The notes under the pieces were generated by a model that had not been told where the DNA came from, searched no databases, and saw nothing but the letters and a program-made list of their open reading frames with translations. From NCBI GenBank assembly GCA_964494005.1, contig CAZBQE010000001.1, forward strand, positions 8,126-60,621: a stretch of 52,496 bases of DNA. Direction: 5' to 3'. Position numbers and translations under genes: made by a program. Positions 19,642 through 48,400 of the stretch are shown piece after piece; the first letter of the stretch is position 1; each line of letters starts with the position of its first letter. This stretch comes from an uncultured Candidatus Peribacteria bacterium (GTDB lineage Bacteria > Patescibacteriota > Gracilibacteria > Absconditabacterales > Absconditicoccaceae).

Positions 19642-20757
19642 TTATAACGTCTTATCAGTCACTATTTTCCCTTTTACACACCCGTTCAAAGCATCTCTCT
19701 TGACTGCTTCAGATCGGAATTTCGTTAAAACCGTTGTAGAAGTGTAGGTCACTGGCCGTTTTTCCAATAATCACTTCATAACGATATAGCTTTCACAGAC
19801 GATGTATTTGCTTGGATTGGTAGTTTTTCCAATCATCTTGTTGGCGTAGGCAGTTCTTCGTTCTGGATAATATTGATTACTGAAACTCACATACGTGAAA
19901 CTGATATCCTTCTTGGTAATTAATGGCATTTCGTATTTTTTCAATAAGTAGATGACCGCATCCATAAGCGTTTGATTGCCGATAGTTGTTGGTGCTACAG
20001 GATCTGGTTCTGCTAATGTATCTACGGATGTTCAGATAACAGTTCCTGTTGCTTCTTTGACTTCTGAATCTTCTATAATATCGCTAAGGATTTCAGATGA
20101 TTCGATAGTTCATGTTGTTCATAGTCCAGTTCCCAATATTTCACCTTCTCCAGTAAAGATATATCCATCATGTGGAATAACATCTTGTCCGAGAAAGTTA
20201 TGAACAATATAGTCTTGGAATGAAGCTTGATAGTCTTTGTGTACGTGATAATAATCATATGCTGTCAAAGCGATACTGAGCACCAATAATATGATGTATA
20301 TTTTGGTTCCTATCAACGATCGGAATGTTTTGGTGATGCGATGTTTGAAAATGAATGTGAGTGAAATAAAGACTATGAATCAGAGAGATAATACAAAGAC
20401 AAGCATAATTTCCGGTGATGCAGTATTGTATTGGAACATAAAGAAAATGATTATAGCTACCAAAAAACTTGTGATAGCAGGCAGAGCAAGTTCTTTCTTT
20501 TTTTTGCGATCTTTGAGGGGACTGCGAACATGTTCGTGGAATGTGACTGTGGGTTCATGTATTGTTTTCTTTTCTGGAGTTTTTTCAACTTCAAAAGTTC
20601 ATTCGATAGTATTATAGAGGATACCGATTAGGATAATAGCTACGAGATTGATTGCTCCCAATCGAAAAAAATTCCCTTGTCCTCGAAGAATACCTATAAT
20701 GATAGGTTGTAGGACGAAAAAATAGATACTAAATAAGAGAAAAAGATTTTTTTTCAT
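19642..20757 (-). CDS. membrane protein (371 aa, about 4 TM, extracytoplasmic C-terminal domain)
   Basis: Track ORFs 20119-20316 and 19771-19965 plus unlisted segments share one frame through 7 TGA. It starts MKKNLFLLFSIYFFVLQPIIIG. Confidence 0.6.
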
Positions 20758-20939: not shown

Positions 20940-21443
20940 ATGTTAGTTATGAAAAAACTTATTATCTGATGAATTATAATGTATGCAAGCCTGATCGTTG
21001 TATGATACGCTCAGATGATAGTTCCTGATTCCTCGAATTATATTCTTAATGAAAATGATCAACAAGTGCTCAATACAGAAGGTATAAATGATCCATTGAG
21101 AGATGGTGCATACAATATCACACAAACAAATGATCCTTCAAGCCCTTTGGATGTAGTGAGTTCAGATGATAAAATTGCTACTCATCAGAATGCTCAAAAT
21201 AAAACATTGCATATCATCAAAAGTATTATCAATTATGCTTTAGGTTTGGTGAGTCTTGTTGCTTTAGTATATCTCATCTATCATGGTTTCCTTATTGTGA
21301 CTGCTTCAGGTGACGATACGCAATACAAAAAAGGCCTCAAAGGTATCAAATTCGCTGCTATTGCATTGGTGGGAATTGGATTGAGCTGGCTTATTGTAAG
21401 TCTCATATTCCGATTGATAGCTTTAATTATTTGACCACTTTAG
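20940..21443 (+). CDS. VirB2/TrbC-like (T4SS-type) pilin candidate 1
   Basis: A signal-like N-terminus (MKKLII-GG-IIMYASLIVV-G-YAQ) is followed by the pilin architecture: TM1 LGLVSLVALVYLIYHGFLIV, loop TASGDDTQYKKGLKG, and TM2 FAAIALVGIGLSWLIVSLIF. Confidence 0.55.
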
Positions 21444-21446
21444 AAA

Positions 21447-21986
21447 ATGAACAACAATACACAAAAGCATATATCTAGATATCTCCTTCGAATAGTCGGT
21501 GTGATTTTTGGATGCGGTGCATTTTTGCCTGCGATATCAGTAGCGGAATTACCATCGATATCGACAGAAGAAACAATGTTCCCTTATGAAATCCAATGAC
21601 AAACGTATGACCCGACTACAGAGGTTGCTACAACAGATATAGCATCAGGACTTATAGCTCCTGATGTCACTGAAGATAATGCGAGCTTGATTCAAAGATT
21701 GACAGATTATTTTAGATTGAGTGGAACACAATATGACGATCCTGAAGCGCCAGCAACTAGCTATGTCAAACGAATACTCAATATATTATTATGATTAGTG
21801 AGTCTTCTTTCACTTGTGATGATTATCTTTGCGTTCTATCTGATCTTCTTTTCCAAATGAGATGAGGCAGTGACCAAAGCAAAAAAGATATTGATCGGTG
21901 TAGGAATAGCTCTTGCGATCATGGGATTGTCACGATTTATCGCAAGCTTCTTCTTTGATATTTATGGAACCGTAACTTGAACATAG
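21447..21986 (+). CDS. VirB2/TrbC-like (T4SS-type) pilin candidate 2
   Basis: Same architecture: LL-G-LVSLLSLVMIIFAFYLIFFSK-G-DEAVTKAKKILIGVGIALAIMGLS-[CGA]-FIASFFF. It starts 3 nt after pilin 1. Confidence 0.55.
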
Positions 21987-22010
21987 TTTTATCCTTTATG
22001 GTGTATAATC

Positions 22011-22712
22011 ATGCTATTTAATCTCTGAGATCAGAGCAAAATCCAAAAAAAGAAAATAGAAAATCTCTTCAATACCGAGACAATGTTGCCGATTTCCGAA
22101 ATCAGGAATGATACGATTATCATGAAGGATGGAGGGCTAAGAGCGATATTGAAAATCAACGGAGTAAACTTAGATCTCAAAAATACTGATGAACAGCAAA
22201 TCGTACTTGAACAATACAAAAAATTCCTCAATGGATTGGAATTTCCTATGCAGATACTTGTTCGCAATACGTTTTTGGATCTTTCGAGTTATCTTACGTA
22301 CATCAGAGGAAATGTGGACGGAATAGAAAATTCTGTACTCAAAGGACAAGGAGAAGCGTATTATAGATTTTTACAGAATATTGATATGCAGCAAGGACTC
22401 ATCTACAACAAAGAATTTTATATTGTAGTGCCTTATTACGAAAGTGAACAAGACAAGAGTTCTATCCAGAGATCATGGCGAGGAAAACTGCTTGATGTTC
22501 TCAATGCCAAAGATAGTGTCGAAAAAATCGTTCAGAGATATAGACAATTTATCAAGGGAAAAACTTCTCTAGAGACAAGAGTGAATCTCGTGACTGATGG
22601 GTTGAATAGCATGGGTATAGAAGCAGAAAAAATCAAGACATCAGACATTATTAACGTTTTGTTTCGTTACTACAATCCTTTGCTTCATAGCTCACAAGCA
22701 CCGATAAAATAA
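22011..22712 (+). CDS. protein resembling only the N-terminal domain of VirB4/TraC-TrsE conjugation ATPases (no ATPase domain)
   Basis: LPISEIRNDTIIMKDGGLRAILKINGVNLDLKNTDEQQIVLEQYKKFLNGLEFPMQILVRN matches the pattern at the start of Gram-positive-type VirB4 proteins. It ends at TAA 22710 with no Walker motifs, and a terminator follows. Confidence 0.45.
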
Positions 22713-24240: not shown

Positions 24241-27200
24241 CTATTTTACTATTTTTCCATTATCTAGTCTAATTATGTCATCTGCGAATTTCAAAATACT
24301 CTTGTCATGCTCGATCATAAGAATAGTGTCTCCCTTATCCAAAAACTGTTTGATGACTTTCATAAGCTTAATGATATCATCAGCATGCAATCCTACGGTT
24401 GGCTCATCAAGAAAGTACATCGTATGTCATTTGTAGGTTTTCAAAAGATGTTTTACAAGTTTAAGTCTTTGACTTTCTCCACCGGAAAGTGTATGTGCGG
24501 GTTGTCCCATCTTGAGATAGCCGAGTCCGATATCTACCATGAGTTGTAATTCTTCGCGGATATGGTCCATCTCAGAAAAGAATTCCAAAGCGTCTTTGAC
24601 ATACATTTCCAAAATTTCAGAAATATTTTTTCCTCTCCGTTTGATTCACAAAATTTCTGTTTTGTATCTTTTTCCATTACAGAGTTCACAAGGTATGTAG
24701 GTGTCCGGTAGAAACTGTAGTTCTACTTTTTTGTAGCCATAGCCGTCGCAGGCAGGGCAGGCTCATTTTTTTGAATTGAAGCTGTAATAGCTTGCATTAA
24801 ATCAGAGATATTTGCTTTCCATGGTTCCTGCAAAGAGTTTCCTAATATGATCAAAAGTTCCGATGAAAGTAGCAGGACAAGATCTCGGTGTTTTTCCTAT
24901 ACTGGTTTGATCGACATAGATAGTATTTTTGATGTCTTCATGTCCGCTAATAGTTTCCACCGCAAGATCTTGGTAGAATTCTTGGATGGCTAGGTTTTCG
25001 TAGTGTTCGTATTTGTCCTTGTGCATGACAGGTGCTGCGAGAATATCAGTCCGATTCCATCCTTTTTTCAAAAGTTCCAATCTGATAAAACTCTGGATGA
25101 ATTTCTGTTTCTCATTCAAAAATCTAAACAGCGTCGTATACATCAGCGTAGTTTTTCCAGCTCCAGAAGGGCCAGTGATGATAGTGAACGTTCCTAATCT
25201 AATTTGCGTATCAATACTTTGGAGATTATGTTTAGATGCTTTTTTGATGGTGATGAAATTATTGCTCGGTGTATGACTAAATTCTGCTGTGACTTTTTTC
25301 TTTCACAAAATATATTGTGCTGTCAGGGTGTTGGATGTCAAAAATTCATCATAAGGTCCATTGAACATCACCTTGCCTCAGAAATCTCCAGCTCCCGGAC
25401 CTATTTCTACAACCCAATCAGATGCTTTGATAAATTCATCATTATGTTCTACAACGATAATCGTGTTGTCCATCTCTCTTAATTTTTTTATTGCCGTAAT
25501 CGCTCTAACGATTTCTCTGGTATCGAGTCCAATCGTAGGTTCATCTAAGACATAAATAATTCCCGTTAGTTTGTTTCCGAGCTGTTTGGCTAATCTCAAT
25601 CTTTGGATTTCTCATCACGAAAGTGTGTCGATTCATCTCTTTAGACTCAAATATCCGAGTCCCAGATCTTGGATAGTCTTGGCTCTATCGATGAGTGGAT
25701 TGACGATTCTTGCTACAAGATTTTTGTCTTTGTTGTTATGTTCTTTGTACAAATCAATAAATGCAATCAATTCATTCAATGGCATTTTTTGTAATTCTGC
25801 GATGTTGAATTTAGTTCAAAGCTCCAAGTTTCAAGCTTCAAGCTGCACTTTAGACGACTTTAAACTTCAAGCTTTAGACTTTAAGCTAAGAAATACATTC
25901 AGACTTTCTTTCTTCAATTTCGTTCCATTACATTCAGGACAGGTTTTCATATCGAGCATCACTTGGAAATCTACGGTCAAAAGTCATTTTGCATATTGGT
26001 CTTTGATAATTTCCTCGATTCCTTTGTAATACATGCTCATATATTTTCCTCCATAATTCACTCTAATCAATTCTTCGTCTCAGAAAAGTACGACATGCTG
26101 AAATCGTTCAGGGAGATTTTTCCATGTTTTGTCGGGATCGATACTGTATTTCTGCGCTAATTTCAAAAGCAATGATTGTCCGAGATTTGAATCTCTTCGT
26201 GGCAAAATAGCTTTCATATATGGACTTTCCGGATCTAATATTTTGTCAAAATCCACCTGCAAAATCTCTCCAATTCCATGACAGGTAGAACATGCTCATT
26301 CCTGTCTATTTGGTGAAAAATGCTGCGGCGTAAATTCCGGATAGGTGATATTACAGTCTGCGCAGTACATTTTGTCGGTAAACCGTTTTATATTTGAAAA
26401 ATCTGAAGAATTGTCTGAAGAATCTGATATAACCGAATTTTTTTTGTTTGATGATTTTTTCATGGGTTTCTCAGATTTTTCTGTTATGTATATTCCGAAC
26501 TTTTTAAACTCGCCGAGTATCTTGATGATATCTTCTTTCAATCTTCATAATTTAGCTTCTTCGACGGTGACTCTATCGTAGATACCATAGGTCTGGATTG
26601 GGAAATATCCGATTGGAATATTCGGCGTTTCGAGGTAGAAATATTCTATAGGATTCAATTCTGACGAATCTGAAACATCTGATATATTGTTTTTTTTCTT
26701 TGTTGTTTTAGTCGTATGTTTTTCAGATATATCAGATGTTTTCTCAGATTTTTCAGCTACTATTAGGTAGCGGGTAAATCATTTCCCCTTTTCTACTTTA
26801 TTTCTATTTTTTCTGACGAATTCCATGAGATCTTCTTTCTTTTCAAATTTTCCTGATTCTTGCAAAAGATATATTTTCTGATTGAGATAATGGTTTTGGA
26901 TGTCATTCATGATTTGTTCGATGGTCTGTGGTTTGATTTCTTTTCCACAGTTATAACAGTAACTATCACCGAGCTTTGCATAGAGCAATCTCAGATAATC
27001 ATCGATTTCCGTAAGCGTTCCTACCGAACTTCTCGAATTTCCTCACTTTTTATTTTGTTCAATCGCGATAGCAGGGGAGAGTCCGGTACAGTGGTCGATA
27101 TCCGGCCTTTCTCCCAAATTGAAAAATTGTCTCAAGTACGAGCTGAGTGATTCTATATATCTATATTGTCCTTCCTTATATATAGTATCGAATGCGAGCG

Positions 27201-27366
27201 ATGATTTACCAGAACCGGAAACTCACGTGATAGTAATCAACTTATTTTTCGGGATTTCAATGTCGATATTTTTCAGATTATGAGTTTTTACTCCTTGAAA
27301 GGTAATCTTATTTTCCATATTTCCGACATTCTGGATGATATGTTTTTCTACAGATTTCTTTGCCAT
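24241..27366 (-). CDS. uvrA: excinuclease ABC subunit A
   Basis: Nine track fragments share one frame through many TGA. Motifs: [18 protein letters not shown], zinc modules, [23 protein letters not shown] and [10 protein letters not shown]. True stop is TAG at 24241. Confidence 0.95.
25812..25890. repeat. AAAGC/AAGCT-family heptad repeat inserted in frame inside uvrA
   Basis: gttcaaagctccaagtttcaagcttcaagctgcactttagacgactttaaacttcaagctttagactttaagctaag encodes [26 protein letters not shown] at a site where UvrA normally has only a few residues. Confidence 0.75.
26396..26483. repeat. ATCTGA-family imperfect palindrome in frame inside uvrA
   Basis: The arm gaaaaatctgaagaattgtctgaagaatctgatataacc faces gggtttctcagatttttctg. 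It encodes [28 protein letters not shown]. Confidence 0.65.
26659..26756. repeat. ATCTGA-family imperfect palindrome in frame inside uvrA
   Basis: The arm ttctgacgaatctgaaacatctgatatatt faces tttcagatatatcagatgttttctcagatttttcag. It encodes [33 protein letters not shown]. Confidence 0.7.
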
Positions 27367-27476: not shown

Positions 27477-27641
27477 TGATTATTCTCCTATATACATAAA
27501 TCTCTTCACTTCTTTCCCGTCTACTACGACATGATCATCAAACATCGCTTTTGGTATGTAAAATTTAATTCTAGCGGCATCCTTTTTTCAATTCTCTTTT
27601 CCAAAACTTAACCGGAATCATAATTCTCAATTCTCAATTAT

Positions 27642-28463
27642 TTAATACGTATTTTTAAGCTCCCAATCAAGCACCTTGATAAATCTAGGAATGATTCCAT
27701 ATCTTGTCGCTCCACTATATTCCTCTCCATAGCCATCGTAAACGTAGTTAGGATTGTTTGGGATGACAATATTTCACGAGATAGTTCCGCCATTGTAGAG
27801 TGCTGCATAATTTACGAGTCCTGTCATGGTGAAACCAGTATAGGTGAAGATAGGTCAGATTTTGGAATAATGCGCTCCGTATTTGCTTTTGGAGAAGTCG
27901 ATGTACTCTTGTATTGTTGTCAAAAATTTTCCTTCGGTGATTGTTCCTGTTCCGTAGTCTTTACTGAGAATTTGGAATGGTCCATCACCATTATTTGGGA
28001 GATAATATCCGCAGTTTGTCTCTCTATATCGCATAGCTATGGTCATCGCAGTCGGAAAATTGTTTGCGAAACTCATGCTATCAAGCGTATTGTATCGCCC
28101 GGTACAGGTGTCAGCAGTTGTAATGCCTGTACTAACATTTCCGCTATACGTATTTACAAACGCTTGTTTGAAACTAGTAGATGCTACTTTTGCTTTCACT
28201 TTTTCTGCATTGATCTGGGTGATGAGATGGATGTCGAGAATGTTTAGATAATATTCCAATTTTTCGTGATTAGCATATTGTTCTTGGAGATTTTTGAGCT
28301 GGATATAGAGCTTAGCTTTGCCTTGCATATTGCCGCTGGTGAGGGAGTTCAATTGATCCCTAAGTTGATTGATAGCGGTGACATCGTCGTTGTTTGGTGT
28401 GTACGCAAATGTAAGTCCAAAGAATACACTGATACTAATAAGTGAAATAACGAGTTTTTTCAT
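27642..28463 (-). CDS. secreted protein, possible GH23-type lytic transglycosylase (VirB1-like role)
   Basis: Signal MKKLVISLISISVFFGLTFA. MRYRETNCGYYLPNNGDGPFQIL resembles the E-S/T ... G-x-x-Q-I motif pair of lytic transglycosylases. The gene extends past TGA 27855 to TAA 27642. Confidence 0.45.
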
Positions 28464-28728
28464 AACGATTTGGGTAATAAGACAAAAAATAGGCGAAACA
28501 TTGTCGAATAATCGTCGAATATAGCTGTGATACAGCTATTGTTTGTCGATAATTAGTCATCCTCATGTGCTTATGCACCTATGAAACAATGTATACAAGT
28601 CCAACTTTCAATGTAGTGTTTTGTAGAGAACTTGCAAGCACAAAAAGAAAAAAAACATGTTATCAAGATACTGATTTCTTTTGACTATCACTTATAGTAT
28701 GTTCTTCGCTTGTAAGAGAGAAACTATA

Positions 28729-30684
28729 TTATTCTTGTGCTGTACTGTTATGGAAAGTTATTTTTTTGAGTGATTCATAATCAGTTGGTCGTGTTGCTGA
28801 TGTCGCGCTAGATCCTCCCATGAGGTTATAGAAGGCTTTAGCGTTGTTATTAGTATTATTAAAGAATGTTTTGAGTGATTCTTCGTCGGTTCATTTTAGT
28901 TGTCATAAGAATGTATAAGTAGAGTCATTAGTTTTAAGATTGGTATTAAGTGCTCTTATTTTGTCTGGCTTCTGAAGTATTAGTGCTACATTTTCCATCC
29001 ATCGCGTATCATTGATAGAGATTCCACCATCCTTTTTTTTCGCTAATTCGTTTGTTTTTTTGAAGAATTCTACTCCACTATCTGCTGAAGTATCTTTAGC
29101 AATTTTTGTAAGTGCTGATTTGTCAGTGTTCATCCATGGTTCTCAGAGGTCCATTTTGCTATTGAGGAAGGCTCTGAATTTTGTATCATTAGTTTCAAAT
29201 GATCATGATTCCAGACTACCGAATTCTCATCTTGTACTCACTCCCATACCTTCAAGTATGTCCTTTTTTTGTGACGTCAAAAGTTGTTGTGCTCATACAA
29301 AAGAAGCTCATCATCCAAGTGGAATCAATGGTAAGGTTTTCACCGTATCTTCGATAAACTTCGTAACGGGTTTCATGACGTCGCTGATAGGTCATTTACC
29401 TGAAGTAACTGCTATTTTGATAAATTGCCACATCAAAAACATAGTAAAGAAGAAGATGATGAGATTGACAAAGATACTCGTTCCTACATCTTGTATTCCT
29501 TGAGTAATCGATTCATTACCTAAGATACCACTTTCTGAAACTTCTATCGTCGATAGATTTTCTATGGTCATTGTAGAAGAGTTGTTTTCGACACTGATAT
29601 GGACATCATTAAAAGATTTTGGGAGTTCTCCTGTCATAATTCTTTGTATGCTTGCGACGAAAATGATAATAAATGCAAATCCGGCCACGAAGATGACAGG
29701 TTTAAAAATCAGATCGATCATTACAGAAAAATTGAGATATTGCATAATTCCTTTGTTGTTTTGATCTCATCCTATGCTTTTATCTTTTCCTTTGAATATC
29801 ATAGCGAGAACAATCAATGGTGATCCTATGACAAAAATTCGTAGGAATGCGACTCTGATGATATTCGCCAAAAACAATAAAGCGAGACCTAAGGTATACA
29901 TCAGGATAAGTACAAGTCTCAAAAGGAAGGCTATGGTAATCTCTCCCACGGTATCGGTTCATGCTACATCAAGATAATTCTGGAACTTGAAAACACTGAA
30001 TCCCAAGTAGATCAACGGTCCGCTTACAGAGTTGTAGGTCGGAAGAATCTCATTTCGAGAACTTATGTCTACAGTTTCATTGCTGATGTTTTCTATAGTT
30101 TTCAAGGAGTCTGCGGTGATTTTATATTTTTTTGGAGTTTTTGATAGGGATGTCTGGATATGGTTTTTGAGATTAGCATCGCCTTGGAGAAAAGTACTCG
30201 GAAAAGATCCTACTGCTGCTGTAGCGATTGTAGAGAGATCAACAAGTGCTCCCACGATAAACCAGCTTGCTTGGATGAGAATACCAGCAATCAAAGTTTT
30301 GGTGATGATATCTTTGAGATCCATTCCTTTTTTTCCTATAAGATTACTGATGATATTCCAGAGAACGATACCTACCAACGCAAAATTTGCGAAATTTTTC
30401 ATGATGTTCCATATTTTTCGAAGATAGATATCCATATGAAGAATAGCACCATATACCCAATCATTGGTCATCAGCTTACCAGCGAGGATAGCAAAGATAA
30501 TCCACAATCGCGAACAGAGCGATAGAATATCACTAAGCATTTTTTTTGTGCGTACCAAAGCATCTCCATCGCTTCCTGCTGCGAATGTCGGTACGATAAA
30601 AAATATTCCTATAATCAATAAAAGACTGACGATTTTGATCGTCTGCGGTTTCATAAGTGTTTTGAAAAGTCTTTTGAGGAACAT
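28729..30684 (-). CDS. polytopic membrane protein, VirB6/TrbL-like candidate (651 aa), paralogue 1
   Basis: Four track ORFs (29959-30684, 29767-29949, 29392-29745, 28903-29133) share one frame through TGA. There are about 8 TM spans and a soluble C-terminus of about 200 aa. The N-terminal 190 aa are colinear with the next gene. Confidence 0.5.
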
Positions 30685-30708
30685 ATGTATGATTGAAGTA
30701 AAGGAGTA

Positions 30709-33231
30709 TTATTGTGTAGGAGTATTGTCTGGAGTAGGTTGAGGTGGTTCTGTAGGTGCTGTTCCTGTATATGTGAACCCACTATTTCCGTCGTCGGTCG
30801 CGGTGATTGTTACTTGCTTATTTCCTACTGCTGCAGTATATTCTCTTTCCGTAGTGCTATTAAAATAAGTATCCAAATATTTTTTATTGGCTTCATTATC
30901 TAGTATAGCTTGGATATTATCTACTGTATTGTTTTCCGTCATTGTATTTATGACGTTAGTATCAAGATCGTCTTTCGCTAACGCGTTAATTGGTTTTTTT
31001 AATTCTGTAGGCATATTTTGTAAAATAGTTGTTTGTTCTGTAAGATCACTAAGTCCTGCTATTGCAGAATAAAATCATCCAGCACTTGCAGTAGCTACTT
31101 CTCCAGGAGTTGCGGTAATGTTTTGTTCTGTAAGATATGTTTGGAGATTCGTTACTGGTGTGGTTTTCATTCTCTCTATAAGTGTGTTTATTTGATCGTT
31201 ACTTAATGCGTTTTTATCGTTTGTACCTCCAGGTGTTCCACCAGAAAATCTCTCTATGATTTCATTTCTTTGTGTTTGTTCTCTTCTTTCTACCCATCTC
31301 TGAGGAGCTTGAGGAAGTTCTCTCATAGCAGTACCAAATCAGACTTTACCTTCCATTCCAGGAATAGGAATCACTGGCATAGTTTGGAAGACGTTTGCAC
31401 CGAATTCTTGGATACCTGCGCCGATCTTCGCACCGAGTGCGTTGGCTTTGATAGCAGCAAAAAGGATAGTCCACAAGATTCCGATAGCGAAGAAATTGAC
31501 AACTAATCGCGAGAATCGATCTAAACTTCCTCATCGATCGAAGTTCTCAAATTCCAATTCATGTGATCCATTGACGAGATATGTTTGGTTGTTGCTGTCA
31601 GCTGTTGGGATAGGTTGTATTTCAAGGTTTTCAGCTACTTTGCTAGATATTTGCTGGTTTTCTTCTGGCTCAAATCATTGGATGAGGGCACTCATAAAGA
31701 TCAAGGAAATACTCAATGCCGCTACGGTAATCACAGGAGCGAAAATAAGTTTGAAGACATTACCCAATTCCAAATGTTCTCAGAGTTTACCGAGAAGGTC
31801 TTTTGGTATAGCATCGTCGAAGATTTTTTTGAGAACAAGAAATGGCGATGCAGCGATATAGAGCCACAGTAAAGCTATCCTCGCTACTAGGACAACAGCT
31901 AGCGCAAGTAAGGGAAAAAAGAGCGCGATAGCAACTCAAGTCTTGATGAGGAAGATACCTGAAGTTTGTCAAAGCGTCGTCGTTTGGGTGTCAGTGAGAT
32001 TTGCAAAATTGAGTAAGGAAGAATACATAGTTACCAATGGTCCGACAAATCCTTTGGATTTGTTGATGAGTTCTCCTATGGTCAATGAAGTAGTGCTCGC
32101 ATAAAAACCACTTCCTGCGATAAATCATGGAGCATTTTGTCCTGATTTGATATTTACGGCATAGTTTTTGACTAGTGGTAAAGTTTCCCATCAAGAAGTG
32201 TTGGTGAGGTTAATCATATATCCTTGGTATCTGATATGTGAATCAAAATCTGTGATACTACCTGTTGTTTGACCAAAATATCCTACAGTTTTGATTCCAC
32301 TCATCAATGCGTCTTCATTCCATACAACCAACTGATTGTTAAAAGCAACACAGACTTCATGTCCAGGATAATAGCTGTCTGTAAAAATATCGGTATTTTT
32401 GAATTTTGGATCACCAAGTTCTCTTCCTATGATATATTTTTCTTCTATCCTACAAGGAGAAATATTTACTTGTTTGTTGGTAGGCTTGTAGGTTGCGGTG
32501 TATCGTACCTGGAAAGCGTCTCCTGCATCATTGAGATTGCTAAATTTATCTAAATCTATTTTGCTGCTAACATGGAGAATTCTTCTTTGTCCGATGTCAG
32601 TATTTTTTACAATACTAAGCGGTAATCCTCCTACTGCATAGGTTGCAATGGTTGAAATATCGACCAAAGCTGCCATGAGAAATCGGCTCGCTTGGATGAG
32701 GATACCAGCAATTAATGTTTTCTTGATAATATCTATCGGTCATTTTTCATCTTTTTGTACGAAAAAATTTTTGATAATAGCAAACAGGACCATAAATCCC
32801 AAAGTGAAGTTCGCAAAGTTTTTCATCATATTCCAAAATTTCCAGAGCGGAGCATCCAGATGAAATACTGAAGCGTAGACCATGGTGTTGTCCAAAGAAA
32901 GTCCAGCAACTACCAAAAGTGGCCAGAGTAGGAGATAAATGATTTTGAGAAGCATATTGAGAATTTCCCAGAGTCAAGATGAACTCGATGCTGATGTAGA
33001 CAAAGGTACGCAAGTATTAGTAGCTGCATTCCAGATGTGAGTTTCTGATTTGAGTTTACAAGCTGTTTCTGTTGTTGCTATTTCTTCTACTTCTGTTGTT
33101 GTTTCAGATGCTTCTTGTGCATAGACATTTTCGCCGATACCTACATATCCGTTTAAGAAAATACCTGATCACAACAAGATAATCATTATTCAGAATATTT
33201 TTTTAGTGAGTTTAGAATTGAATCGATGCAT
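30709..33231 (-). CDS. polytopic membrane protein, VirB6/TrbL-like candidate (840 aa), paralogue 2
   Basis: Track ORFs 32740-32955, 32191-32676, 31075-31326 and 30709-31014 plus about 900 nt with no listed ORF form one frame through TGA. I translated the whole gap and found no TAA/TAG. It has a signal/TM, several TM clusters and a Thr/Pro-rich tail TGTAPTEPPQPTPDNTPTQ. Confidence 0.5.
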
Positions 33232-33553: not shown

Positions 33554-34156
33554 ATGTTATTCCTCAATATTTCCAGTGATTATGTCCATCTGCTTGATGA
33601 TCAGGACGAACAATTCTTACCCCGTAATACGATAGAAACTAATTTATGACCTGCAATTTTGGAATATACCAAAGCTCATCCCGTGGAGACGATAGTTCTC
33701 CTCAATGGCCCAGGCGGATTCACGAATCTCAGAGTCGGGACATTGACGCTCACTATGATGAATGAACTTTTACTTCACGATACAGGAACCTTTATTCCCT
33801 TGGCTTCGATCACGAAAATTGACTTTTATACTTATGCGTATACTCAAGGTCGATTACCAAGATACGGTATCATTTATATCGGACAGAAACACAATGTACG
33901 AAAATTTGATGCGGAAACTAAATCTTATGAACAGATTACTCTAGAAGATATCACATATTCTGACGACATATTTCTCGATCGAGTTCGTGATCCGTATTGG
34001 AAGAATGATGAACAGATGGTCTTCTTTTCGATGAGCAACAATTCCTTATTTCTCAATTATCGTGGCGATAGTCACAAAATTGAACTCATGGACTTACATT
34101 TGCCAATGACGATGAGTGTAGAACCACAATATATGATTGAGCCAACTATGAACTAG
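33554..34156 (+). CDS. tsaB: TsaB (YeaZ)-like t6A biosynthesis protein
   Basis: IVLLNGPGGFTNLRVGTLTL matches the TsaB GPGSFTGLRIG motif. ATG 33554 joins track ORF 33659-34156 through one TGA. Confidence 0.6.
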
Positions 34157-34293
34157 TTAATAGTGAATAGTTAATAGTGAATAGTGATGGTATTTGTTTT
34201 TGGTATGGACTATTGTATATGTACGATAGTTGATAAGTATACAAATTCTTTCGTTGTTCGTTATTTGTTTTTAGTTTTTCATTCAATGTAGTT

Positions 34294-34701
34294 ATGCAAA
34301 CTAACCACCGCAAAACCAAAGCTATCCTTGGTATCGATCGAGGGACAAAATATATAGGACTTGCCTATGCGCTTCCTGGTAGTGAAGTTGTTTTTCCTAT
34401 TGGTTATATCCTGAATGATCAGATGATGTACTTCAATATCGCTGGTATCATTGAAAAACACAATATCGGGAAAATCATGCTCGGACGACCAGCGAAGCAA
34501 AAAGATATCCAAGAAAAAATTACTACATTTATGAAAAGTCTCAATTATATTATCGAACATAGAGAGATAGAAATCCAGCTGGTAGAGGAGGATTATACTT
34601 CTGTTCAGTCGTGAGAGATAGTTTCCAACTTCAAAAAAAACGCTGCTACTGATACGGTGAGCGCGATGCTTATACTTGAAAGAGGACTTAAAAACAACTA
34701 A
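34294..34701 (+). CDS. ruvX: YqgF-family pre-16S rRNA nuclease / putative Holliday junction resolvase
   Basis: AILGIDRGTKYIGLAYA, KIMLGRPAKQKD and VEEDYTSVQS-G-E match YqgF. Confidence 0.8.
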
Positions 34702-42124: not shown

Positions 42125-45100
42125 ATGACAAATCAAATGAATAGCATTGAATCATTACAGACTGAGGTAAATCAGGTAAAGACTGACTTAGATTTGCTTA
42201 AAGCAGTGACTAATGAGACAATAAAACAAACTAAAGCAGAAAGCTTAGCGCAGGATGTTACTGCGACCAAAGAAAAAATCAAAAAAGAACTTGATGCACT
42301 CAAGTGACTTACTGATGCAACATCTTTGGAAAACACAAGAAAACTTGAAGCTATGCTTTTGACATTGGAAACATCGACTACAGAGCTTACTACGCTCAAA
42401 GCAAGCGTTACTACACCTTTGAATTCTTCAGAAGAAACACCATCAGAACTTCAGGAAGAACATAAAGAAGAACAAGAAGATGAAACCAAAGAGAAAAATT
42501 GGATCAAAAGACAATGGGACGGAGTAACGAGCAAAGAAGAATGGAAAACAAACACCTGAGCTAATATTGCTCGTGTAGCATGAGGGATAGGCGCTGTTTC
42601 TTTGGCAGTTCGATGAATCAAAAAACTTTTTGGTCGAGGAAAAAAGAACAAAGAGAAAAAAGAAGGAGAAGAGTCTACAGAAAAAAAAGGATTTCGACAA
42701 AAACCATTAGGTAAATTTCTCAAATGGACAGGAATAGGAACGGGTGCTTATTATCTTATTCATGGCTTTGTTACCGGGAAATGGAATTTAAAAGATTTTT
42801 TCGATTGGAATAAATTAGGTGCGGATAACCATGATGAATCGTGAGAACAAGTAGAATCATATACAGAACGAGCAGAAAAAAATCCTGAACAGAAGGAAAA
42901 ATATGAATCATTTTGAGATACTGTTGATGCTTATTATGAAAGCATATTCGCCAAAGAATTGGATGCAGGATGGGAAGATGACGCTGATATGTCATCGATT
43001 CCAGAAAATGTGGCTGCGAAAAATGAGGGAAAGAATATCGATGTTACGCTCAAAGGTGTTGTTCCGTATTGTATGGATAATAGTTTTTCATCAGTGAAAA
43101 GCATACTTTCCGAAAAAGGTATAGAAGTTGATATCTTTCAAAGAGATATAGCGGAAATCAAGACACGGGTCGTATGATGGATAAAATGAACACTTGGAAA
43201 ATGATTACTATGATTCCTTTCTGTATTGCCGTCTTTTATCGCGAAGGGAATAGGAAGCACTACCGAAGAAAAAGTTGAGAACCGGATAAGCAGCGGAAAA
43301 CGTGAAGACCGTATTGCGGAATTGAAATTCTTTTTCAGACAGCAAGTGAGGATGACGGTCTATCTCAACCAGAAAAAAAATGAATTGATCAAAAAAATAG
43401 CTGAAGAAAAATTAGCAGTGAATAATCCGGAAAATTTCGAAAGTGTCGAAGAGGCATTGAATGACGCTGATCGAGTGGAGAAAGAAATCCTGAATAATGC
43501 GGATTATACCAGTTTTATAAACGGTAGCATACTCAATGCTGTCGATATTATGAGAAAAAGGGATGTCTTTTGAGATACACCTGATGAAGATGTTCAGAAA
43601 GTCGTGGATGAAATAGATACACAAAGAGATGAAATTATGGACGGAACTTGCGGCGATGATATCATCACGAGATGCAAAGCGGATTTTGAAGATGATGGAA
43701 AACTGGAGACAGCAAACTCCACGGTACTTACAGAGTCATGTAGGAATATCATCAACGATATTACAGAAGAAGTGGAATGACCTATGGAAGAATCCATGCG
43801 GAATATCTATGAAGATCTCAGAGATAGCAATGACGCACAGCTCAGACAGTTATTGAAGGAATCTCCGCTACTGAAAATGTTCGGGGATATTAAACAGTGA
43901 TTGGAAGATATGATTTTAAAAATTCAGAACGGAACTTTCACTAAGGAGGATCTGGTATCGTTAAAAAAAGTCGTCAACAATTATTTCGCTTTCAAAAAGG
44001 AATTGATGATAGGGGCGAATACCTTTGAACAGATAAAAGACGAGAATGGAAATATTGTCATAAGCTTAGGAAAATTTTTGCGAGGATGTCTACAGAATAT
44101 CTGAGAAGGATTATTCTGAGGACATGGATTCCGAGAAGGGGCATGATATGTAGTTACGTGAGCGATACCGATATTTACGGTCGTAGCAGGAGTGCTGTGG
44201 TTTAGAAAACCTAAGAATCGATATAAGACGTGAGTGGCAATATACAATACAGTACCAAGAGTAAGCCAATCGCTTCTCCGGACAACGAAGACGATAAATA
44301 GAAAATATATGTGACCGCCGAGTATGATTAGGAAAGCATTTTTTGAGGGTGCTACCGGACCTACAAAGTTGGAGGCTTCATTGATGCAAGGAAATATTTC
44401 TTTGCGCAAAGCTTCGCAGATAGTGGATAACGGCATGAACGGCAAATTCGTTTGAAGAAATACCAAGAGCATCCGATTGACGAGATACGGAGCTAACAAT
44501 AACATCGATACCATCAAGAAGATACTCATGGACAAGATATTTCCGACATTCAAACTTGTGGATGATGAGTTGGAAATGGTGGCCAAGAATTTTGATAACA
44601 GGACATGGAACAAATTGCTTTTGACCAGCACCAACAAGGATACCATTAATCTTATGAAAAAATATGAAGCTTTGCAGGTTTCTGGAGAGAAGAAATTGTT
44701 CTTTGATAAGATATTGGATAGTGGAGATCTGTCTAAATCAGATATCCAGAAGCTCATAAAGTATGCGGATGATATAGATATAAGTAATTTGGAGACAAAA
44801 GAACTTAATAAAATAGCTAAAAAGCTCAGTAAAGAAATCTCTAACCTTGCTGATGCAAATGCAATCAATGCAAAAATAACCGACCTCAAGAAGACAGTCA
44901 ATGTAGTGGATGTTTTGACTGATGCACAAAAGGCATGTCAAAAAATGATAAACAATAAAATAAGTGTATTACAAAAACAGGTGTGAACATTGAGTGGTGT
45001 GGAGAAGAAGATTATGGAATTGGATATTGATAATTTAAGAAAGTTAGCACAAGATATGAAACACTTGCCAGATGATGAGGTGAAGGTTTTAAATAACTTG

Positions 45101-45403
45101 TTGTGAACAAATGTTTCAATGAGATATATAAGTAAAATATTGAGTGTTGATGATCCAATGAAAATTCTTAGTAAAATGAATGCTGCGACAAAAATAGATG
45201 AGTTTGAAATTATCCTGAAAAGTGCAAAAAATGCTGATGTTGATGATATGATCCACGCATTAAAAAGCATTAATAAATTTGATGGATTCCATAAACAATT
45301 TTTGAAAAATGTTGGTGTGATGAGCGATGCTGTACGTACATTGAAAAACTCACAAAAACTAATGAAAACGTTGAAAATTCTCGCAAAAGTGCCTATAATC
45401 TAA
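42125..45403 (+). CDS. giant membrane-anchored helical protein A (1092 aa), unknown function
   Basis: Seven track ORFs in frame 2 (42125, 42326, 42959, 43226, 43901, 44477, 45119) are joined. I translated every gap and found only TGA, no TAA/TAG. Stop is TAA at 45401. It has an N-terminal coiled coil, an acidic tract, hydrophobic hairpins and K/E-rich helical text. Confidence 0.75.
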
Positions 45404-45432: not shown

Positions 45433-48400
45433 ATGGTTGTAGAGTTGAAGATAGAAAAATTGAAGACTCAAGTAGACCAGATAAAAGCTGACCTTATTTT
45501 TCTACAACAAGAAGCATCAAAAAATGTTGTAGATTCTAAAAAAACAGAAGAATTAGAAAAAGAAGTAAACAAGGTAAAAGCAGATATTCAAAAAGAATTA
45601 GATGAGTTGAAGTGAAAGACTGACCTTTTGTCTTCCAAAAAATCCCAAAAGCTGGAAGAAATGTTGATTACTATAGAGACATCAGCATCAGAATTAGCTA
45701 CACTCAAATTGTGAGTAAGTGAGGATGTGTCTTCTATCGAAGAGGAAGAAGATGAAGAAGAGGAAAAGAAAGAAGAGGGAAAAGGAGAAGATGAAAAAAA
45801 ACCAGTAAAAAATTGGTTTAAACAACAAATAGATGGATTCACTGATTCTACAGAAGAACATCATGGATGGAAAAATGTCGCTCGTGTAGCATGAGGGATA
45901 GGAATAGTGGCAATATGAATTCGAGGAATCAAAAAATTATTTGGATTGGGAAAAAAAGAAAAAGATAAAGAAAAAGATACGTCTCCATCATCAGAAAAAG
46001 AATCGACTGATGAGAAAAAATGATTTTGGGAGAGTTGATTCGGAAAATTTTTTAAACGGACAGGAATCGGAACGGGTGCATATTATATTACGCGTGGACT
46101 TGTGAGCGGTAATCGATGATTCAAAGATTTTTTTAATCGAAAGAAAAAAGAAACAGAGGATGATGCTAAAAAAGAAAAAAATGCTCGAGTAGAAAAACAA
46201 AAACAAGAAGTGGAGGATATAGCTTCTGAAGTTGACAAAGTAAATAATGAACAAGATCCTGATCAACAACATCAAGGTGTGCAAAACATTGAAACGCTTA
46301 TTGTTACCAAAAAAACGACCATAGAACATAAGATTGAAGAATTGGAAAAAGAATGAAAAGAAAAAAATAAACAAGAGATAGAAGAATTGGAGGATATACT
46401 AAAAAAACTTGAAGGATATGAAAATGAAATATACCAAATCGCTGACAGAGAAAGCGTACAATGACCTATTTCTTGAGCAAGTGAAGACATAGAATCTCCA
46501 GAAGAAGATGATGGTTTGAGTCATCGGACTCATGTACCTGGAGCAGCGATAGCGGTGACAGGATGAACAGCTGCAGGCCGATGAACAGCCAAGATTTTAC
46601 AGAAAACAAAACTTGCAGCAGAATCAGTACCAGAAGCAAAGGTGATATCTCAGACAAGAAAAGGATTCGAAAATATAGTACAAGGGCTTGAATATAGGTT
46701 ACTCGATGATCAATTACTGGATGTGCAAAAACAAAATATAAAGAAATCGATACAATATTTCAAAGAGGCAGGAGAAAATGCTGATGTTATAGAAGAATTG
46801 AAAATATGGCAAAAACTTTGAGATAAGTTACCTATAGAGACATTGAACGCTTTGGATATAGATCCGATTTTAGCAAAACAACTAAAAAACTTCTCCAATG
46901 ACGCAGAATTTGTTGAAGCTATAGCAAAAGCTAAAAGTGAAACACAGATAAAAAATATTTTCAAGGCTAGGGGAGTTATTAATGTTCCAGATGATGTAGT
47001 AAAATTATTGAAAACTGCTAAATATGCTAATGAAGTGAAAGCTATTTCTAGGGTACTTTCAGTAACAAGACCGATCAAAGCATTGGGAAGATGATTGAGA
47101 ATGGTTCCGTTTATTGATTTGGCTGCAGGAGGAATAGATGTATGGTTATATTTTATGGAAGCGAGAGAAGCTGATCTTATCAAAAAAACTAATGAACTAA
47201 GATGATCAAACAAACAACAACAAGCAAATATGCATCTTGTACTTGGTGCAATTGATCTCGCTGTCGGGGTAGGTGCAAGTGCTATTATATTTGCTTCAGC
47301 TTGTGCTTCTTCATGACCTCCATGATGGGTGGTAGGTGTTGTAGCTGCTACTGCTGCGTTAGTAACCTGGTGAGTGAGAGAGGTGGCGGATACGTATTAT
47401 TATGAATTGGTTGATTTTTATCTTAGAAACAAAGAAGATTATGTAGAAATGTATAGATGAGAGATTAAATCAGCGATTCTTCAGGCGACTGTTCGTGGGG
47501 ACGATTCTTTTTCTTTGTCATGAACGGAATCGTTTGCTGAGATATTTAATCGAAGCAATAGTATAGATAAAAATAAAAAAGTAACTTTGGAAGACGCATA
47601 TCGAACAATGATATATATTGAAGAAAAAAAGCATTATCCCACAGTTGGAGTACTTAATCCAAATTATCCCAAAGATCCTGATCAACCATTGGAGTGAACG
47701 GATCTCGAACATTATACCAAAGAAAAAGAGAAGTTGGATAAAATTATAGCATTGAGAATGGAATATATCAAAAAGTTTTTGCCACACACTACTACGAGTA
47801 CAGATAAGTCAGATTATAATAAATATATTGCTGATATACAATGAGCGAAGTGAATACATGCGATAGAACAGATTGTGGCAGATTCCAAAACGTATCAATA
47901 TATGAAACAAGATACAGAGTTTGCAGGATACATAGATATAAAAAAATATCAAGCAGCACAAAGAACATCATTAAAAAAAGAGAATGAAGTGTGGTTTGAT
48001 CAATTAGAATCTATGTACAAAAAAGATCCAGCTACGATAGTAGAGTTGTATTATTATGTGATAGAATATGATATGGTAGTCAAAGATGAAGAGAGTTATC
48101 AAAAAGAATATGTATGAGTTTCGTCTCAGATCTCGTTTATCAAAAGATATTATGAATATACACTAGCTCATATTCCACCAGAAAAAAAGATGTTTGTGGG
48201 AAATATTTATGATATTCCTTATACAAAAACAGAAGAAATGCTAAAAAATATGGAATCAGGAAAAATAGACATGAATCCTATGGCATTTACGGAACAAGAC
48301 ATCAAGAAGCGTTTGGTGTATGGACTAGAGATCAATAGATTTGAAGAATCACATGCTGAATATACATCAAATATCGGACAAAATATTATCTATAGAATAG

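What the first reader, a model, noticed from the sequence alone, without database searches (positions are those of the whole stretch)
27642..33231. Tandem paralogous VirB6/TrbL-like polytopic membrane proteins plus a secreted lytic-transglycosylase-like protein
After recoding, about 4.5 kb that the track shows as roughly ten fragments becomes two co-directional genes of 840 and 651 aa, separated by 24 nt. Their N-terminal 190 aa are clearly paralogous: MVYASVFHLDAPLWKFWNMMKNFANFTLGFMVLFAIIKNF versus WVYGAILHMDIYLRKIWNIMKNFANFALVGIVLWNIISNL, and KKTLIAGILIQASWF-ALVD-STIAT-AVG in both. Each has about 8 or more TM spans and a long soluble C-terminus. The larger one has a Thr/Pro-rich tail. A gene for a secreted protein with an E-T...GPFQI motif pair typical of GH23 enzymes follows 265 nt downstream. 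Size, topology and partners fit the channel component (VirB6/TcpH-like) and wall-opening enzyme (VirB1-like) of a Gram-positive-type secretion or conjugation apparatus. No ATPase or coupling protein is nearby.
Basis: partly seen in the sequence, partly recalled or inferred. Interest (0 to 1): 0.7.

Follow-up and report, generated by a model that had tools for sequence, protein, structure and literature searches.

The report
Candidate divergent VirB6 pair, Absconditabacteria
Two neighbouring genes for large multi-pass membrane proteins, plus a secreted protein, are probably the very divergent "missing" channel part of a chromosomal type IV secretion machine in tiny predatory or parasitic bacteria; the evidence is suggestive, not conclusive.

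Summary
With TGA read as glycine (shown here on UvrA), 30709-33231(-) and 28729-30684(-) are intact genes of 840 and 651 aa, 24 nt apart. They are paralogous through the whole membrane core, with about 8 hydrophobic segments each. A 273-aa secreted protein follows 265 nt downstream.

All three are conserved "hypothetical" families of SR1/Absconditabacteria, Vampirococcus and some Gracilibacteria, in a syntenic housekeeping context. This is not a mobile element.

The VirB6-like reading is moderately supported:
- TrwI/VirB6 is the only notable PDB fold hit for an ortholog model (prob 0.85, E 0.087).
- One ortholog gives a sub-threshold Pfam TrbL/VirB6 hit on TM5-TM7, but that sequence was mistranslated (Trp for Gly).
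- Profile-profile signal is weak but lies in the same register.
- Two T4SS pilin genes and a TrsD/TraC-like gene lie 5-7 kb away. In three related genomes they directly abut the trio.

A 2025 survey found no VirB6 in Gracilibacteria and suspected extreme divergence.

The GH23 reading of the third gene rests only on a motif triad (E-T...GPFQI...YNGG) with Slt70-like spacing. Every HMM, profile and fold search was negative despite a confident model.

The parts
30709..33231 (-). Gene A: 840-aa polytopic membrane protein (code 25). It has an N-terminal hydrophobic segment, a TM2-TM4 module with the NMMKNFANF and LIAGILIQAS..A.VDISTIAT motifs, an insertion of about 190 aa with conserved Cys (probably extracytoplasmic), a TM5-TM8 bundle (the VirB6-like part), a soluble C-terminus of about 240 aa and a Thr/Pro-rich tail.
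28729..30684 (-). Gene B: 651-aa paralog of A without the large insertion. It has about 8 hydrophobic segments and a helical soluble C-terminus of about 225 aa. The model of its ortholog P0001 (53% identical) gives TrwI/VirB6 as the top PDB fold hit.
27642..28463 (-). Gene C: 273-aa protein with an N-terminal hydrophobic signal-like segment, a long helical N-domain and a C-domain. Residues E148, PFQI162-165, Y223-N224, C120 and C151 are invariant. The GH23-like motif triad is present, but no homology or fold match was found.
20940..21443 (+). VirB2-like T4SS pilin (PF18895, E 5.7e-11). It is linked to the A-B-C trio in the related genomes.
21447..21986 (+). Second, tandem VirB2-like T4SS pilin (PF18895, E 2.6e-5, just under the gathering score).
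22011..22712 (+). TrsD/TraC-like protein (resembles the VirB4 N-terminal domain; no ATPase domain). It is 78% identical to the L002 ortholog and 67% to the L010 ortholog, both of which carry precomputed PF26593 TraC-like hits. My Pfam copy gave no hit for the window protein itself.
19642..20757 (-). 371-aa membrane protein, divergent from the pilin genes. Its ortholog lies immediately upstream of A on the same strand in L010 (29% identity, E 1e-34). A gene of similar size (328 and 353 aa) holds that position in L012 and L013; its homology was not tested. Possible further component of the system; function unknown.

Best explanation
A and B are a tandem pair of very divergent VirB6/TrbL-like polytopic cytoplasmic-membrane proteins. 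They belong to the chromosomal, non-conjugative, monoderm-type (MPF_FATA-related) type IV secretion system of Absconditabacteria/SR1.

Proposed working (inferred). The two paralogs assemble, possibly as a hetero-oligomer, into the membrane platform or stalk base through which VirB2-like pilins (encoded at 20940-21986) are extracted and polymerised, and through which substrate passes. A VirB4 ATPase encoded elsewhere in the genome would supply the energy. The TrsD/TraC-like protein (22011-22712) and the 371-aa membrane protein (19642-20757) would be further parts. The large Cys-containing loop of A and the long C-termini would face the envelope or host side. C is exported by Sec and acts in the cell wall next to the machine, possibly as a muralytic enzyme that uses E148.

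Shown here: gene integrity under code 25, paralogy, hydrophobic-segment count, conservation, synteny, linkage to the pilin and TrsD genes, and VirB6 as the best fold match.

Inferred: homology to VirB6, oligomer formation, the role of C, and the biological use (epibiotic or predatory interaction with a host cell).
For: 1. Fold. The AF2 model of B-ortholog P0001 (pLDDT 69.9; TM helices 70-87) searched against the whole PDB gives TrwI/VirB6 of the R388 T4SS stalk (8rt9_F) as top hit: prob 0.85, E 0.087, 368 aligned columns. The next hits have prob <=0.06.

2. Sequence. Of about 166 family members scanned with Pfam, the A-type ortholog P0429 hits PF04610 TrbL/VirB6 at E 4.1e-5, 23.9 bits (gathering score 25.9), residues 340-457 against profile positions 74-190 of 215. 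That stretch maps to TM5-TM7 of A (about 402-519) and B (about 228-345).

3. Profile-profile. hhalign of four family alignments against an 11-sequence VirB6 alignment gives P 0.0045-0.034. A reversed-template control gives 0.05-0.3. The register is consistent: R-x11-(S)P-F/L-hydrophobic in the family against K/R...(G/A)P-L-F in VirB6.

4. Context. PF18895 T4SS pilins x2 and a TrsD/TraC-like gene lie 5-7 kb from the trio in the window and in L002. In L010, L012 and L013 they directly abut a ~350aa-A-B-C array. Linkage therefore survives a block rearrangement.

5. NCBI names one A homolog (P0210) 'type IV secretion system protein', the same product name it gives TrwI and Ti VirB6.

6. Literature. 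PMC12102498 reports that VirB4, TrsD, VirB3 and VirB2-like genes occur in Gracilibacteria, but that VirB6 is 'absent ... suggesting extreme sequence divergence', and that TrsD there is not near virB4.
Against: No Pfam or NCBIfam hit for A or B themselves at E<=1. No TrbL hit in 72 B-type or 40 A-type homologs.

The single TrbL hit is below the gathering score, and it lies on a code-4 translation in which 9 of the 10 Trp in the matched stretch are really TGA = Gly. I could not re-score it. A similar-strength hit to an unrelated TM family (CobD_Cbib, 9.6e-5) also occurred, so hits between TM proteins at this level can be spurious.

The Foldseek E-value (0.087) and TM-scores (0.21/0.37) are not significant on their own. 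hhalign probabilities are only 1.5-8%. PDB sequence-profile searches found no VirB6.

There is no VirB4 or T4CP in the 52-kb window. In RAAC1_SR1 and L014 the pilin and TrsD genes are not within 10 kb of the pair. Membrane topology was not resolved.
Confidence: 0.6

Rival explanations
1. A and B are a lineage-specific family of envelope membrane proteins with no evolutionary relation to VirB6, for example a transporter, an anchor for surface or host-attachment structures, or another novel machine. The resemblance to VirB6 would be generic helical-bundle similarity, and the proximity to pilin and TrsD genes would reflect a shared envelope role or chance within a compact genome.
For: All sequence-level tests are non-significant or compromised. 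Foldseek E 0.087 and TM 0.37. The reversed-template hhalign control reaches P 0.05. The conserved N-terminal module (TM1-TM3, NIMKNFANF motif) lies outside the part that aligns with VirB6 (A2 alignment starts at column 127). The pair occurs without nearby pilins in RAAC1_SR1 and L014.
Against: VirB6 is the only PDB fold hit with appreciable probability, and it is the a priori hypothesis. The only notable Pfam hit besides CobD is TrbL, on the conserved core. Linkage with the T4SS genes is kept in 5 of the 7 genome contexts that could be judged (window and L002; L010, L012, L013), despite rearrangement. No transporter family matched consistently.
Confidence: 0.28
2. The trio is part of a conjugative or mobilisable element (a Gram-positive-type conjugation channel plus wall hydrolase).
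For: The architecture (large VirB6/TcpH-like membrane proteins next to a putative wall enzyme) resembles that of monoderm conjugation systems. The CPR T4SS is phylogenetically related to MPF_FATA conjugation machinery.
Against: The same gene order, embedded among housekeeping genes (RsmE, Mur ligase, DUF58, RuvX, TsaB-like, UvrA, DUF1846), is found in all eight related loci examined, including a complete SR1 chromosome. The window has no Walker-A ATPase other than UvrA; relaxase and integrase genes were not searched for. GC content is uniform. The family is found in many Absconditabacterales species representatives. The literature finds relaxases in only about 100 of thousands of Patescibacteria genomes.
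Confidence: 0.03
3. Gene C is not a GH23 lytic transglycosylase. It would be a non-enzymatic secreted structural or adaptor protein of the system (or an enzyme of a new fold), and the E-T/GPFQI/YNGG triad would be a convergent or coincidental resemblance.
For: A confident model (pLDDT 84, pTM 0.81) has no lysozyme-like match in PDB or BFVD (best E 2.3 and 1.2). No hit in Pfam, NCBIfam or PHROGs for C or for 33 + 9 homologs. The PDB profile search was negative. hmmsearch against TrwN, VirB1, PrgK and Orf14 was negative. hhalign against a 5-sequence SLT alignment gave Prob 0.5% and was not in the motif register.
Against: The three most conserved motifs of the family coincide in order and spacing with GH23 motifs I-III: E to G is 13 residues against 15 in Slt70, and E to Y is 75 against 74. 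My rough estimate of matching such a pattern by chance is about 1e-5 per protein (inference, not a tool result). The protein is exported, and it sits where a VirB1-like enzyme would be expected.
Confidence: 0.45

Closest known systems
VirB6/TrbL family (PF04610): TrwI of R388, VirB6 of the Ti plasmid, TraD of pKM101
   Same: Polytopic cytoplasmic-membrane protein. TrwI is the best and only notable PDB fold match. A conserved basic-residue...Pro-containing TM helix aligns in the same register. Encoded in linkage with VirB2-like pilin genes.
   Different: Two to three times larger (651 and 840 aa against about 300-345). Has an extra conserved N-terminal three-TM module and long soluble C-termini. 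Fails the family HMM. Not next to virB4, virB5 or virB8. Chromosomal, with no conjugation genes.
Monoderm VirB6-like proteins of the MPF_FATA class (PrgH of pCF10; by my recollection also TcpH of pCW3, ConG of ICEBs1 and Orf15 of Tn916)
   Same: From a monoderm-type T4SS. The R-x11-P-L/F-hydrophobic helix is shared with PrgH. By my own recollection of the literature, TcpH and ConG are of similar size (about 800 aa) with multi-TM N-terminal parts and large extra domains.
   Different: No detectable sequence match (phmmer and hhalign not significant). Only PrgH was actually compared here. Those proteins sit in conjugative elements beside VirB4 and VirD4.
Multiple, extended VirB6 paralogs of Rickettsiales (e.g. 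Anaplasma VirB6-1 to -4; PMC7648143 abstract)
   Same: Tandem duplicated VirB6-like genes with long C-terminal extensions in a reduced-genome, host-dependent bacterium with a scattered, non-conjugative T4SS.
   Different: Those are recognisable VirB6 family members in a diderm P-type system. The analogy is architectural only and was not tested here.
Patescibacteria (CPR) T4SS as described in Saccharibacteria and surveyed by Quinonero-Coronel et al. 2025 (PMC12102498)
   Same: Chromosomal, relaxase-less, with VirB2-like pilin arrays and TrsD. The authors found no VirB6 in Gracilibacteria and suspected extreme divergence; this family fits that gap.
   Different: In Saccharibacteria the VirB6 gene is detectable by HMM and lies near virB4. 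Here the candidate is undetectable by standard HMMs, is duplicated, and is linked to the TrsD and pilin genes rather than to virB4.
GH23 / SLT-domain lytic transglycosylases (Slt70, MltC, VirB1, TrwN)
   Same: Protein C has E-[ST], G-x-[MF]-Q-[IL] and Y-N-x-G motifs in the same order and with nearly the same spacing as Slt70. It is exported and is adjacent to T4SS-like genes.
   Different: No HMM, profile-profile or fold similarity. It has an extra helical N-domain of about 100 aa and two invariant Cys.

Membership tests
TrbL/VirB6 (PF04610) | Match to the family HMM at or above the gathering score | tested here: not met
   A and B give no Pfam hit at E<=1. Among 40 A-type, 54 distant and 72 B-type homologs, only P0429 hits, at 23.9 bits against a gathering score of 25.9. 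That sequence is a code-4 mistranslation.
TrbL/VirB6 (PF04610) | Polytopic inner-membrane protein with at least 5 TM helices and a large loop | tested here: met
   About 8 hydrophobic segments in each protein by Kyte-Doolittle. Long helices in the AF2 model. The large loop lies between TM4 and TM5, about 190 aa longer in A than in B.
TrbL/VirB6 (PF04610) | Fold similarity to a solved VirB6 (TrwI, 8rt9) | tested here: inconclusive
   Top PDB hit with prob 0.85, but E 0.087, TMq 0.21, TMt 0.37. The model is of ortholog P0001, not of the window protein.
TrbL/VirB6 (PF04610) | Profile-profile similarity to bona fide VirB6 sequences | tested here: inconclusive
   hhalign P 0.0045-0.034, Prob 1.5-7.8%. 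The reversed-template control gives P 0.05-0.3.
Type IV secretion system (monoderm/CPR type) | Signature ATPase VirB4 encoded with the other components | tested here: not met
   The only Walker-A proteins in the 52-kb window are UvrA repeats. Only a TrsD/TraC-like protein resembling the VirB4 N-domain is present. The literature says TrsD is not near virB4 in Gracilibacteria. The rest of the genome could not be examined.
Type IV secretion system (monoderm/CPR type) | Linkage with other recognised T4SS genes (VirB2-like pilin, TrsD) | tested here: met
   PF18895 x2 at 20940-21986. The TraC-like ortholog relationship is shown. These genes form a contiguous cluster with the trio in L010, L012 and L013.
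Conjugative element | Relaxase, coupling protein, integrase or variable genomic location | tested here: not met
   Conserved housekeeping synteny in all eight related loci examined. No T4CP-like ATPase. Relaxase was not searched for with dedicated HMMs.
GH23 / SLT lytic transglycosylase (PF01464; VirB1-like) | Match to family HMMs or profiles | tested here: not met
   Pfam, NCBIfam and PHROGs give none. PDB profile search: none. hmmsearch and hhalign against SLT proteins: none.
GH23 / SLT lytic transglycosylase (PF01464; VirB1-like) | Catalytic Glu-Ser/Thr, G-L-M-Q-like and A-Y-N-x-G motifs in order | tested here: met
   E148-T, G161-PFQI and Y223-NGG, invariant or nearly so in 33 homologs. 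Spacing 13 and 75 residues against 15 and 74 in Slt70. The motif definition is taken from my knowledge of family-1 lytic transglycosylases.
GH23 / SLT lytic transglycosylase (PF01464; VirB1-like) | Lysozyme-like fold | tested here: not met
   The model of P0241 (90% identical to C; pLDDT 84.2, pTM 0.81) has no match with E<1 in PDB or BFVD.
GH23 / SLT lytic transglycosylase (PF01464; VirB1-like) | Peptidoglycan-cleaving activity | not testable with these tools
   Needs an enzyme assay.

The most novel reading that the evidence does not exclude
The seven linked genes (TrsD-like, two pilins, the 371-aa membrane protein, A, B and C) would encode the core of a T4SS-derived organelle fixed in the chromosome of Absconditabacteria and Vampirococcus. 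In this reading a heteromeric pair of hyper-divergent, enlarged VirB6 paralogs forms the membrane channel or stalk, and C is a wall-opening enzyme of a previously unseen fold that keeps only the GH23 catalytic motifs. The machine would be used for attacking or feeding on the host cell rather than for conjugation.
Probability: 0.3. Interest if true: 0.65.

Novelty: new variant of a known kind. Interest (0 to 1): 0.45.

Why it matters
A T4SS is essential for epibiotic growth in the one Patescibacteria species tested, as reported in PMC12102498. The 2025 survey could not find the VirB6 channel component in Gracilibacteria-class genomes and suggested extreme divergence.

This family is conserved across SR1/Absconditabacteria, Vampirococcus lugosii and some Gracilibacteria. 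It is a concrete candidate for that missing part, together with a linked secreted protein and a further membrane protein.

If confirmed, it would complete the parts list of the machine in the UGA-recoded predatory lineages and give targets for cryo-ET, proteomics and genetics in the existing co-cultures. It also shows how wrong genetic-code translations in public protein sets can both hide and fake domain hits.

It is not a new kind of system.

Tried and rejected
- Direct Pfam and NCBIfam scans of A, B and C: nothing.
- NCBIfam on the homolog that NCBI names 'type IV secretion system protein' and its relatives: nothing.
- PDB sequence-profile searches with the B-family, distant-member and C-family alignments, and with P0429: no relevant hit.
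- hhalign of the family profile against the single TrwI sequence: nothing.
- phmmer of TrwI, VirB6 and PrgH against all 456 collected proteins: nothing significant.
- A 1.84-billion-protein profile search. It showed the family is large (2350 representatives), but only the top 150 strong hits are listed, so no bridge to annotated families could be read from it.
- For C: Foldseek against PDB and BFVD, PHROGs, and directed HMM and HH comparisons with SLT/VirB1 proteins, all negative. I also considered a VirB5-like reading of C (secreted, helical bundle plus globular part, next to VirB6-like genes). I rejected it because no VirB5/TraC structure appeared among the fold hits.
- Rfam, tRNA and promoter/terminator scans: no RNA family or tRNA gene was found, promoter-like sites were at the shuffle expectation, and terminator-like sites (9 found against a shuffle mean of 3.5, sd 1.7) were not followed up.
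- The conjugative-element reading was rejected on synteny.

Full report
**Observation**

The window is low-GC (about 35%), and every long reading frame is interrupted by TGA only.
- A, 30709-33231, 840 aa, 13 in-frame TGA.
- B, 28729-30684, 651 aa, 11 in-frame TGA.
- C, 27642-28463, 273 aa, 2 in-frame TGA.

Under code 11 they fall into 14, 12 and 3 fragments. The gaps are 24 nt and 265 nt.

I tested the recoding rather than assuming it. In the window's UvrA (24241-27366), the TGA codons align with Gly of E. coli UvrA at 9 of 15 aligned sites, including the Walker A and both glycines of LSGGE, and never with Trp. So this is code 25, as in Absconditabacteria and Gracilibacteria.

**Paralogy and anatomy**

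BLASTP of A against B gives 49% identity over 136 aa (E 2e-26) in the N-terminal membrane module. A second segment of 26% over 247 aa (E 2e-15) covers the C-terminal membrane bundle. The proteins are therefore paralogous through the whole membrane core, not only the first 190 aa.

A has an extra loop of about 190 aa (about 205-395) that carries conserved cysteines in its family. Hydropathy shows about 8 hydrophobic segments in each protein, followed by soluble tails of about 240 and 225 aa. A ends in a short Thr/Pro-rich tail. I could not resolve the membrane topology.

C has one N-terminal hydrophobic segment. Its model shows a helical N-domain and a mixed C-domain.

**Conservation**

All three proteins belong to large, unannotated families:
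- 201, 185 and 250 hits for B, A and C in the 90%-clustered database.
- 2350 representatives at 50% clustering for the A+B profile.
- The organisms are SR1/Absconditabacterales, Vampirococcus lugosii and some Gracilibacteria.

Adjacent locus tags and fetched loci show the A-B-C order in many genomes.

The trio is embedded among housekeeping genes in the same order as in the window. Two examples are a complete SR1 chromosome (L001) and L002, which read RsmE, Mur ligase, DUF58, RuvX, a TsaB-like 200-aa gene, A, B, C, UvrA. This is a core chromosomal locus, not a mobile element.

**What A and B are**

*Negative results.* Standard tools say nothing. There is no Pfam or NCBIfam hit for A or B and no PDB sequence-profile hit.

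The model has pLDDT 69.9, with 70-87 in the TM helices. Foldseek against the PDB returns TrwI/VirB6 from the R388 T4SS stalk (8rt9_F) as the top hit: prob 0.85, E 0.087, 368 aligned columns. Everything else has prob <=0.06. This is suggestive but not significant.

*Pfam on homologs.* Scanning about 166 family members gave one relevant hit. The A-type ortholog P0429 matches PF04610 TrbL/VirB6 at E 4.1e-5 and 23.9 bits, just under the gathering score of 25.9. The match covers residues 340-457 and profile positions 74-190 of 215. That stretch maps to TM5-TM7 of A and B.

*Caveat on that hit.* P0429 is stored as a TGA=Trp translation, and 9 of the 10 Trp in the matched stretch are TGA codons, so really Gly. 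With a small home-made VirB6 HMM the mistranslation was worth about 1 bit, but I could not re-run Pfam. A comparable hit to an unrelated membrane family (CobD_Cbib, 9.6e-5) also turned up. This evidence is therefore weak.

*Profile-profile.* I built an 11-sequence VirB6 alignment from annotated plasmids. hhalign against it gives P 0.0045-0.034 for four family alignments. The same template reversed gives 0.05-0.3. The aligned register is always the same: the invariant Arg...Ser-Pro helix of the family falls on the Lys/Arg...Gly-Pro helix of VirB6 and PrgH.

**Context is the strongest independent line**

Five to seven kb from the trio, the window encodes:
- two tandem PF18895 T4SS pilins, at 20940-21443 (E 5.7e-11) and 21447-21986 (E 2.6e-5);
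- a 233-aa protein at 22011-22712 whose orthologs (78% and 67% identical) carry PF26593 TraC-like hits, that is, the TrsD/VirB4-N-domain-like protein.

In three other genomes (L010, L012, L013) these three genes lie directly next to, and divergent from, an array of a ~350-aa protein followed by A, B and C. In L010 that ~350-aa protein is the ortholog of the window's 371-aa membrane protein at 19642-20757 (E 1e-34). The corresponding L012 and L013 genes (328 and 353 aa) hold the same position, but I did not compare their sequences.

The window and L002 differ from these genomes by a swap of the blocks [A-B-C-UvrA] and [DUF1846-TrsD-pilin-pilin-371aa]. Linkage therefore survives rearrangement in 5 of the 7 genome contexts that could be judged. 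It is not seen within 10 kb in RAAC1_SR1 or L014, and the short P0429 contig L009 could not be judged.

No VirB4- or VirD4-type ATPase is present in the window.

**Literature**

Quinonero-Coronel et al. (bioRxiv 10.1101/2025.01.22.634366; Microb Genom 2025, PMC12102498) describe a chromosomal, mostly relaxase-less, MPF_FATA-related T4SS across Patescibacteria. They report that:
- VirB6 homologs are 'absent' in Gracilibacteria, 'suggesting extreme sequence divergence';
- TrsD and VirB3 in that class are not near virB4;
- the T4SS genes, virB6 among them, are essential in a Saccharibacteria epibiont.

The A/B family fits the predicted missing component. NCBI has named one A homolog 'type IV secretion system protein'. 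The Vampirococcus genome paper does not mention a T4SS.

**What C is**

The family alignment shows invariant E148, P162-F-Q-I165, Y223-N224 and two Cys. The pattern E-[ST] ... G-x-[MF]-Q-[IL] ... Y-N-x-G has nearly the same spacing as in Slt70 (13 and 75 residues against 15 and 74). From my knowledge of family-1 lytic transglycosylases, these are the GH23 motifs. By my rough estimate, such a match by chance is rare.

Every homology and fold test failed:
- Pfam, NCBIfam and PHROGs on C and on dozens of homologs.
- PDB profile search.
- hmmsearch against TrwN, VirB1, PrgK and Tn916 Orf14.
- hhalign against an SLT-domain alignment: Prob 0.5%, and not in the motif register.
- Foldseek of a confident model (pLDDT 84.2, pTM 0.81) against PDB and BFVD: no hit below E 1.

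I therefore do not file C under GH23. 'Exported wall-active enzyme using E148' remains a reasonable working hypothesis at roughly even odds.

**Mechanism proposed**

A and B, possibly as a hetero-oligomer, would form the VirB6-like membrane platform of the chromosomal T4SS of this SR1 bacterium. The platform would serve assembly of the two VirB2-like pilins and passage of substrate. A VirB4 encoded elsewhere would provide the energy, and C would act in the wall.

Shown here are gene integrity, paralogy, conservation, synteny and linkage. Homology to VirB6, the assembly, and the biological use in host interaction are inferred. My confidence in the VirB6-like reading is about 0.6.

The main rival is a lineage-specific membrane family unrelated to VirB6 (about 0.28). 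A conjugative element is very unlikely (about 0.03).

**Verdict**

- Novelty: a new, highly divergent and duplicated variant of a known kind of component.
- Interest is moderate (0.45). The finding fills a gap that the field has explicitly noted, but it does not reveal a new kind of system.

Noticed in passing
window 24241-27366 (-) and whole window: TGA is a sense codon throughout the window (for example 19 in UvrA and 42 in the 1650-aa ORF). In UvrA it aligns with Gly of the E. coli protein at 9 of 15 aligned sites, including the Walker A and LSGGE. This is genetic code 25, so the source is an Absconditabacteria/Gracilibacteria-type genome.
   Followed up: yes
window 20940-22712 (+): Two tandem VirB2-like T4SS pilin genes (PF18895) are followed by a 233-aa TrsD/TraC-like gene (resembles the VirB4 N-domain; no ATPase).
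   Followed up: yes
window 19642-20757 (-): A 371-aa protein with several hydrophobic segments and a soluble C-domain, divergent from the pilin genes. In L010 its ortholog sits directly upstream of A on the same strand; L012 and L013 have a gene of similar size there, not compared. No family assignment (only a weak DUF2678 hit).
   Followed up: partly
window 42125-45403 (+), 45433-50385 (+), 50424-51524 (+): Two adjacent giant ORFs (1092 and 1650 aa; 22 and 42 in-frame TGA) share a paralogous N-terminal region of about 235 aa (45% identity, E 3e-34), which by eye looks coiled-coil-like and includes a hydrophobic segment. They are followed by a 366-aa protein with an NlpC/P60 domain (E 5e-5). 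Possibly a surface or host-attack module.
   Followed up: partly
L009 154-2625 (protein P0429) and many database homologs: Public protein sets hold these genes translated with TGA=Trp (51 TGA against 6 TGG in P0429). This produces runs such as 'MWWWWDKF', which can distort domain searches. The only TrbL/VirB6 Pfam hit in the family lies on such a sequence.
   Followed up: yes
window 33554-34156 (+) and 34294-34701 (+): The gene divergent from A is a conserved 200-aa protein with a 'GPGGFTNLRVG' motif that looks TsaB/YeaZ-like by eye. It travels with RuvX, not with the trio (in L010 it is next to RuvX, away from A). Pfam gave no hit.
   Followed up: partly
window 34153-34186: A short tandem repeat, TAGTTAATAGTGAA, about 2.4 copies, lies directly after the stop of the 200-aa gene. 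A similar small repeat, 'AATTCTCAATTCTCAATT', lies at about 27621-27639, just downstream of gene C.
   Followed up: no
window 4087-5514 (+) and 5518-7077 (+): Two adjacent ORFs of 475 and 519 aa, each with a single hydrophobic segment after a polar N-terminus and no obvious family. Not examined.
   Followed up: no
L014 (ERZ19026949 scaffold_60) and L009: In some relatives the third gene is not directly after B. L014 has a Trypsin_2 protease and other genes between B and a 281-aa gene, and L009 has a 103-aa gene and a large acidic protein instead. The A-B pair is therefore more tightly linked than C is.
   Followed up: partly
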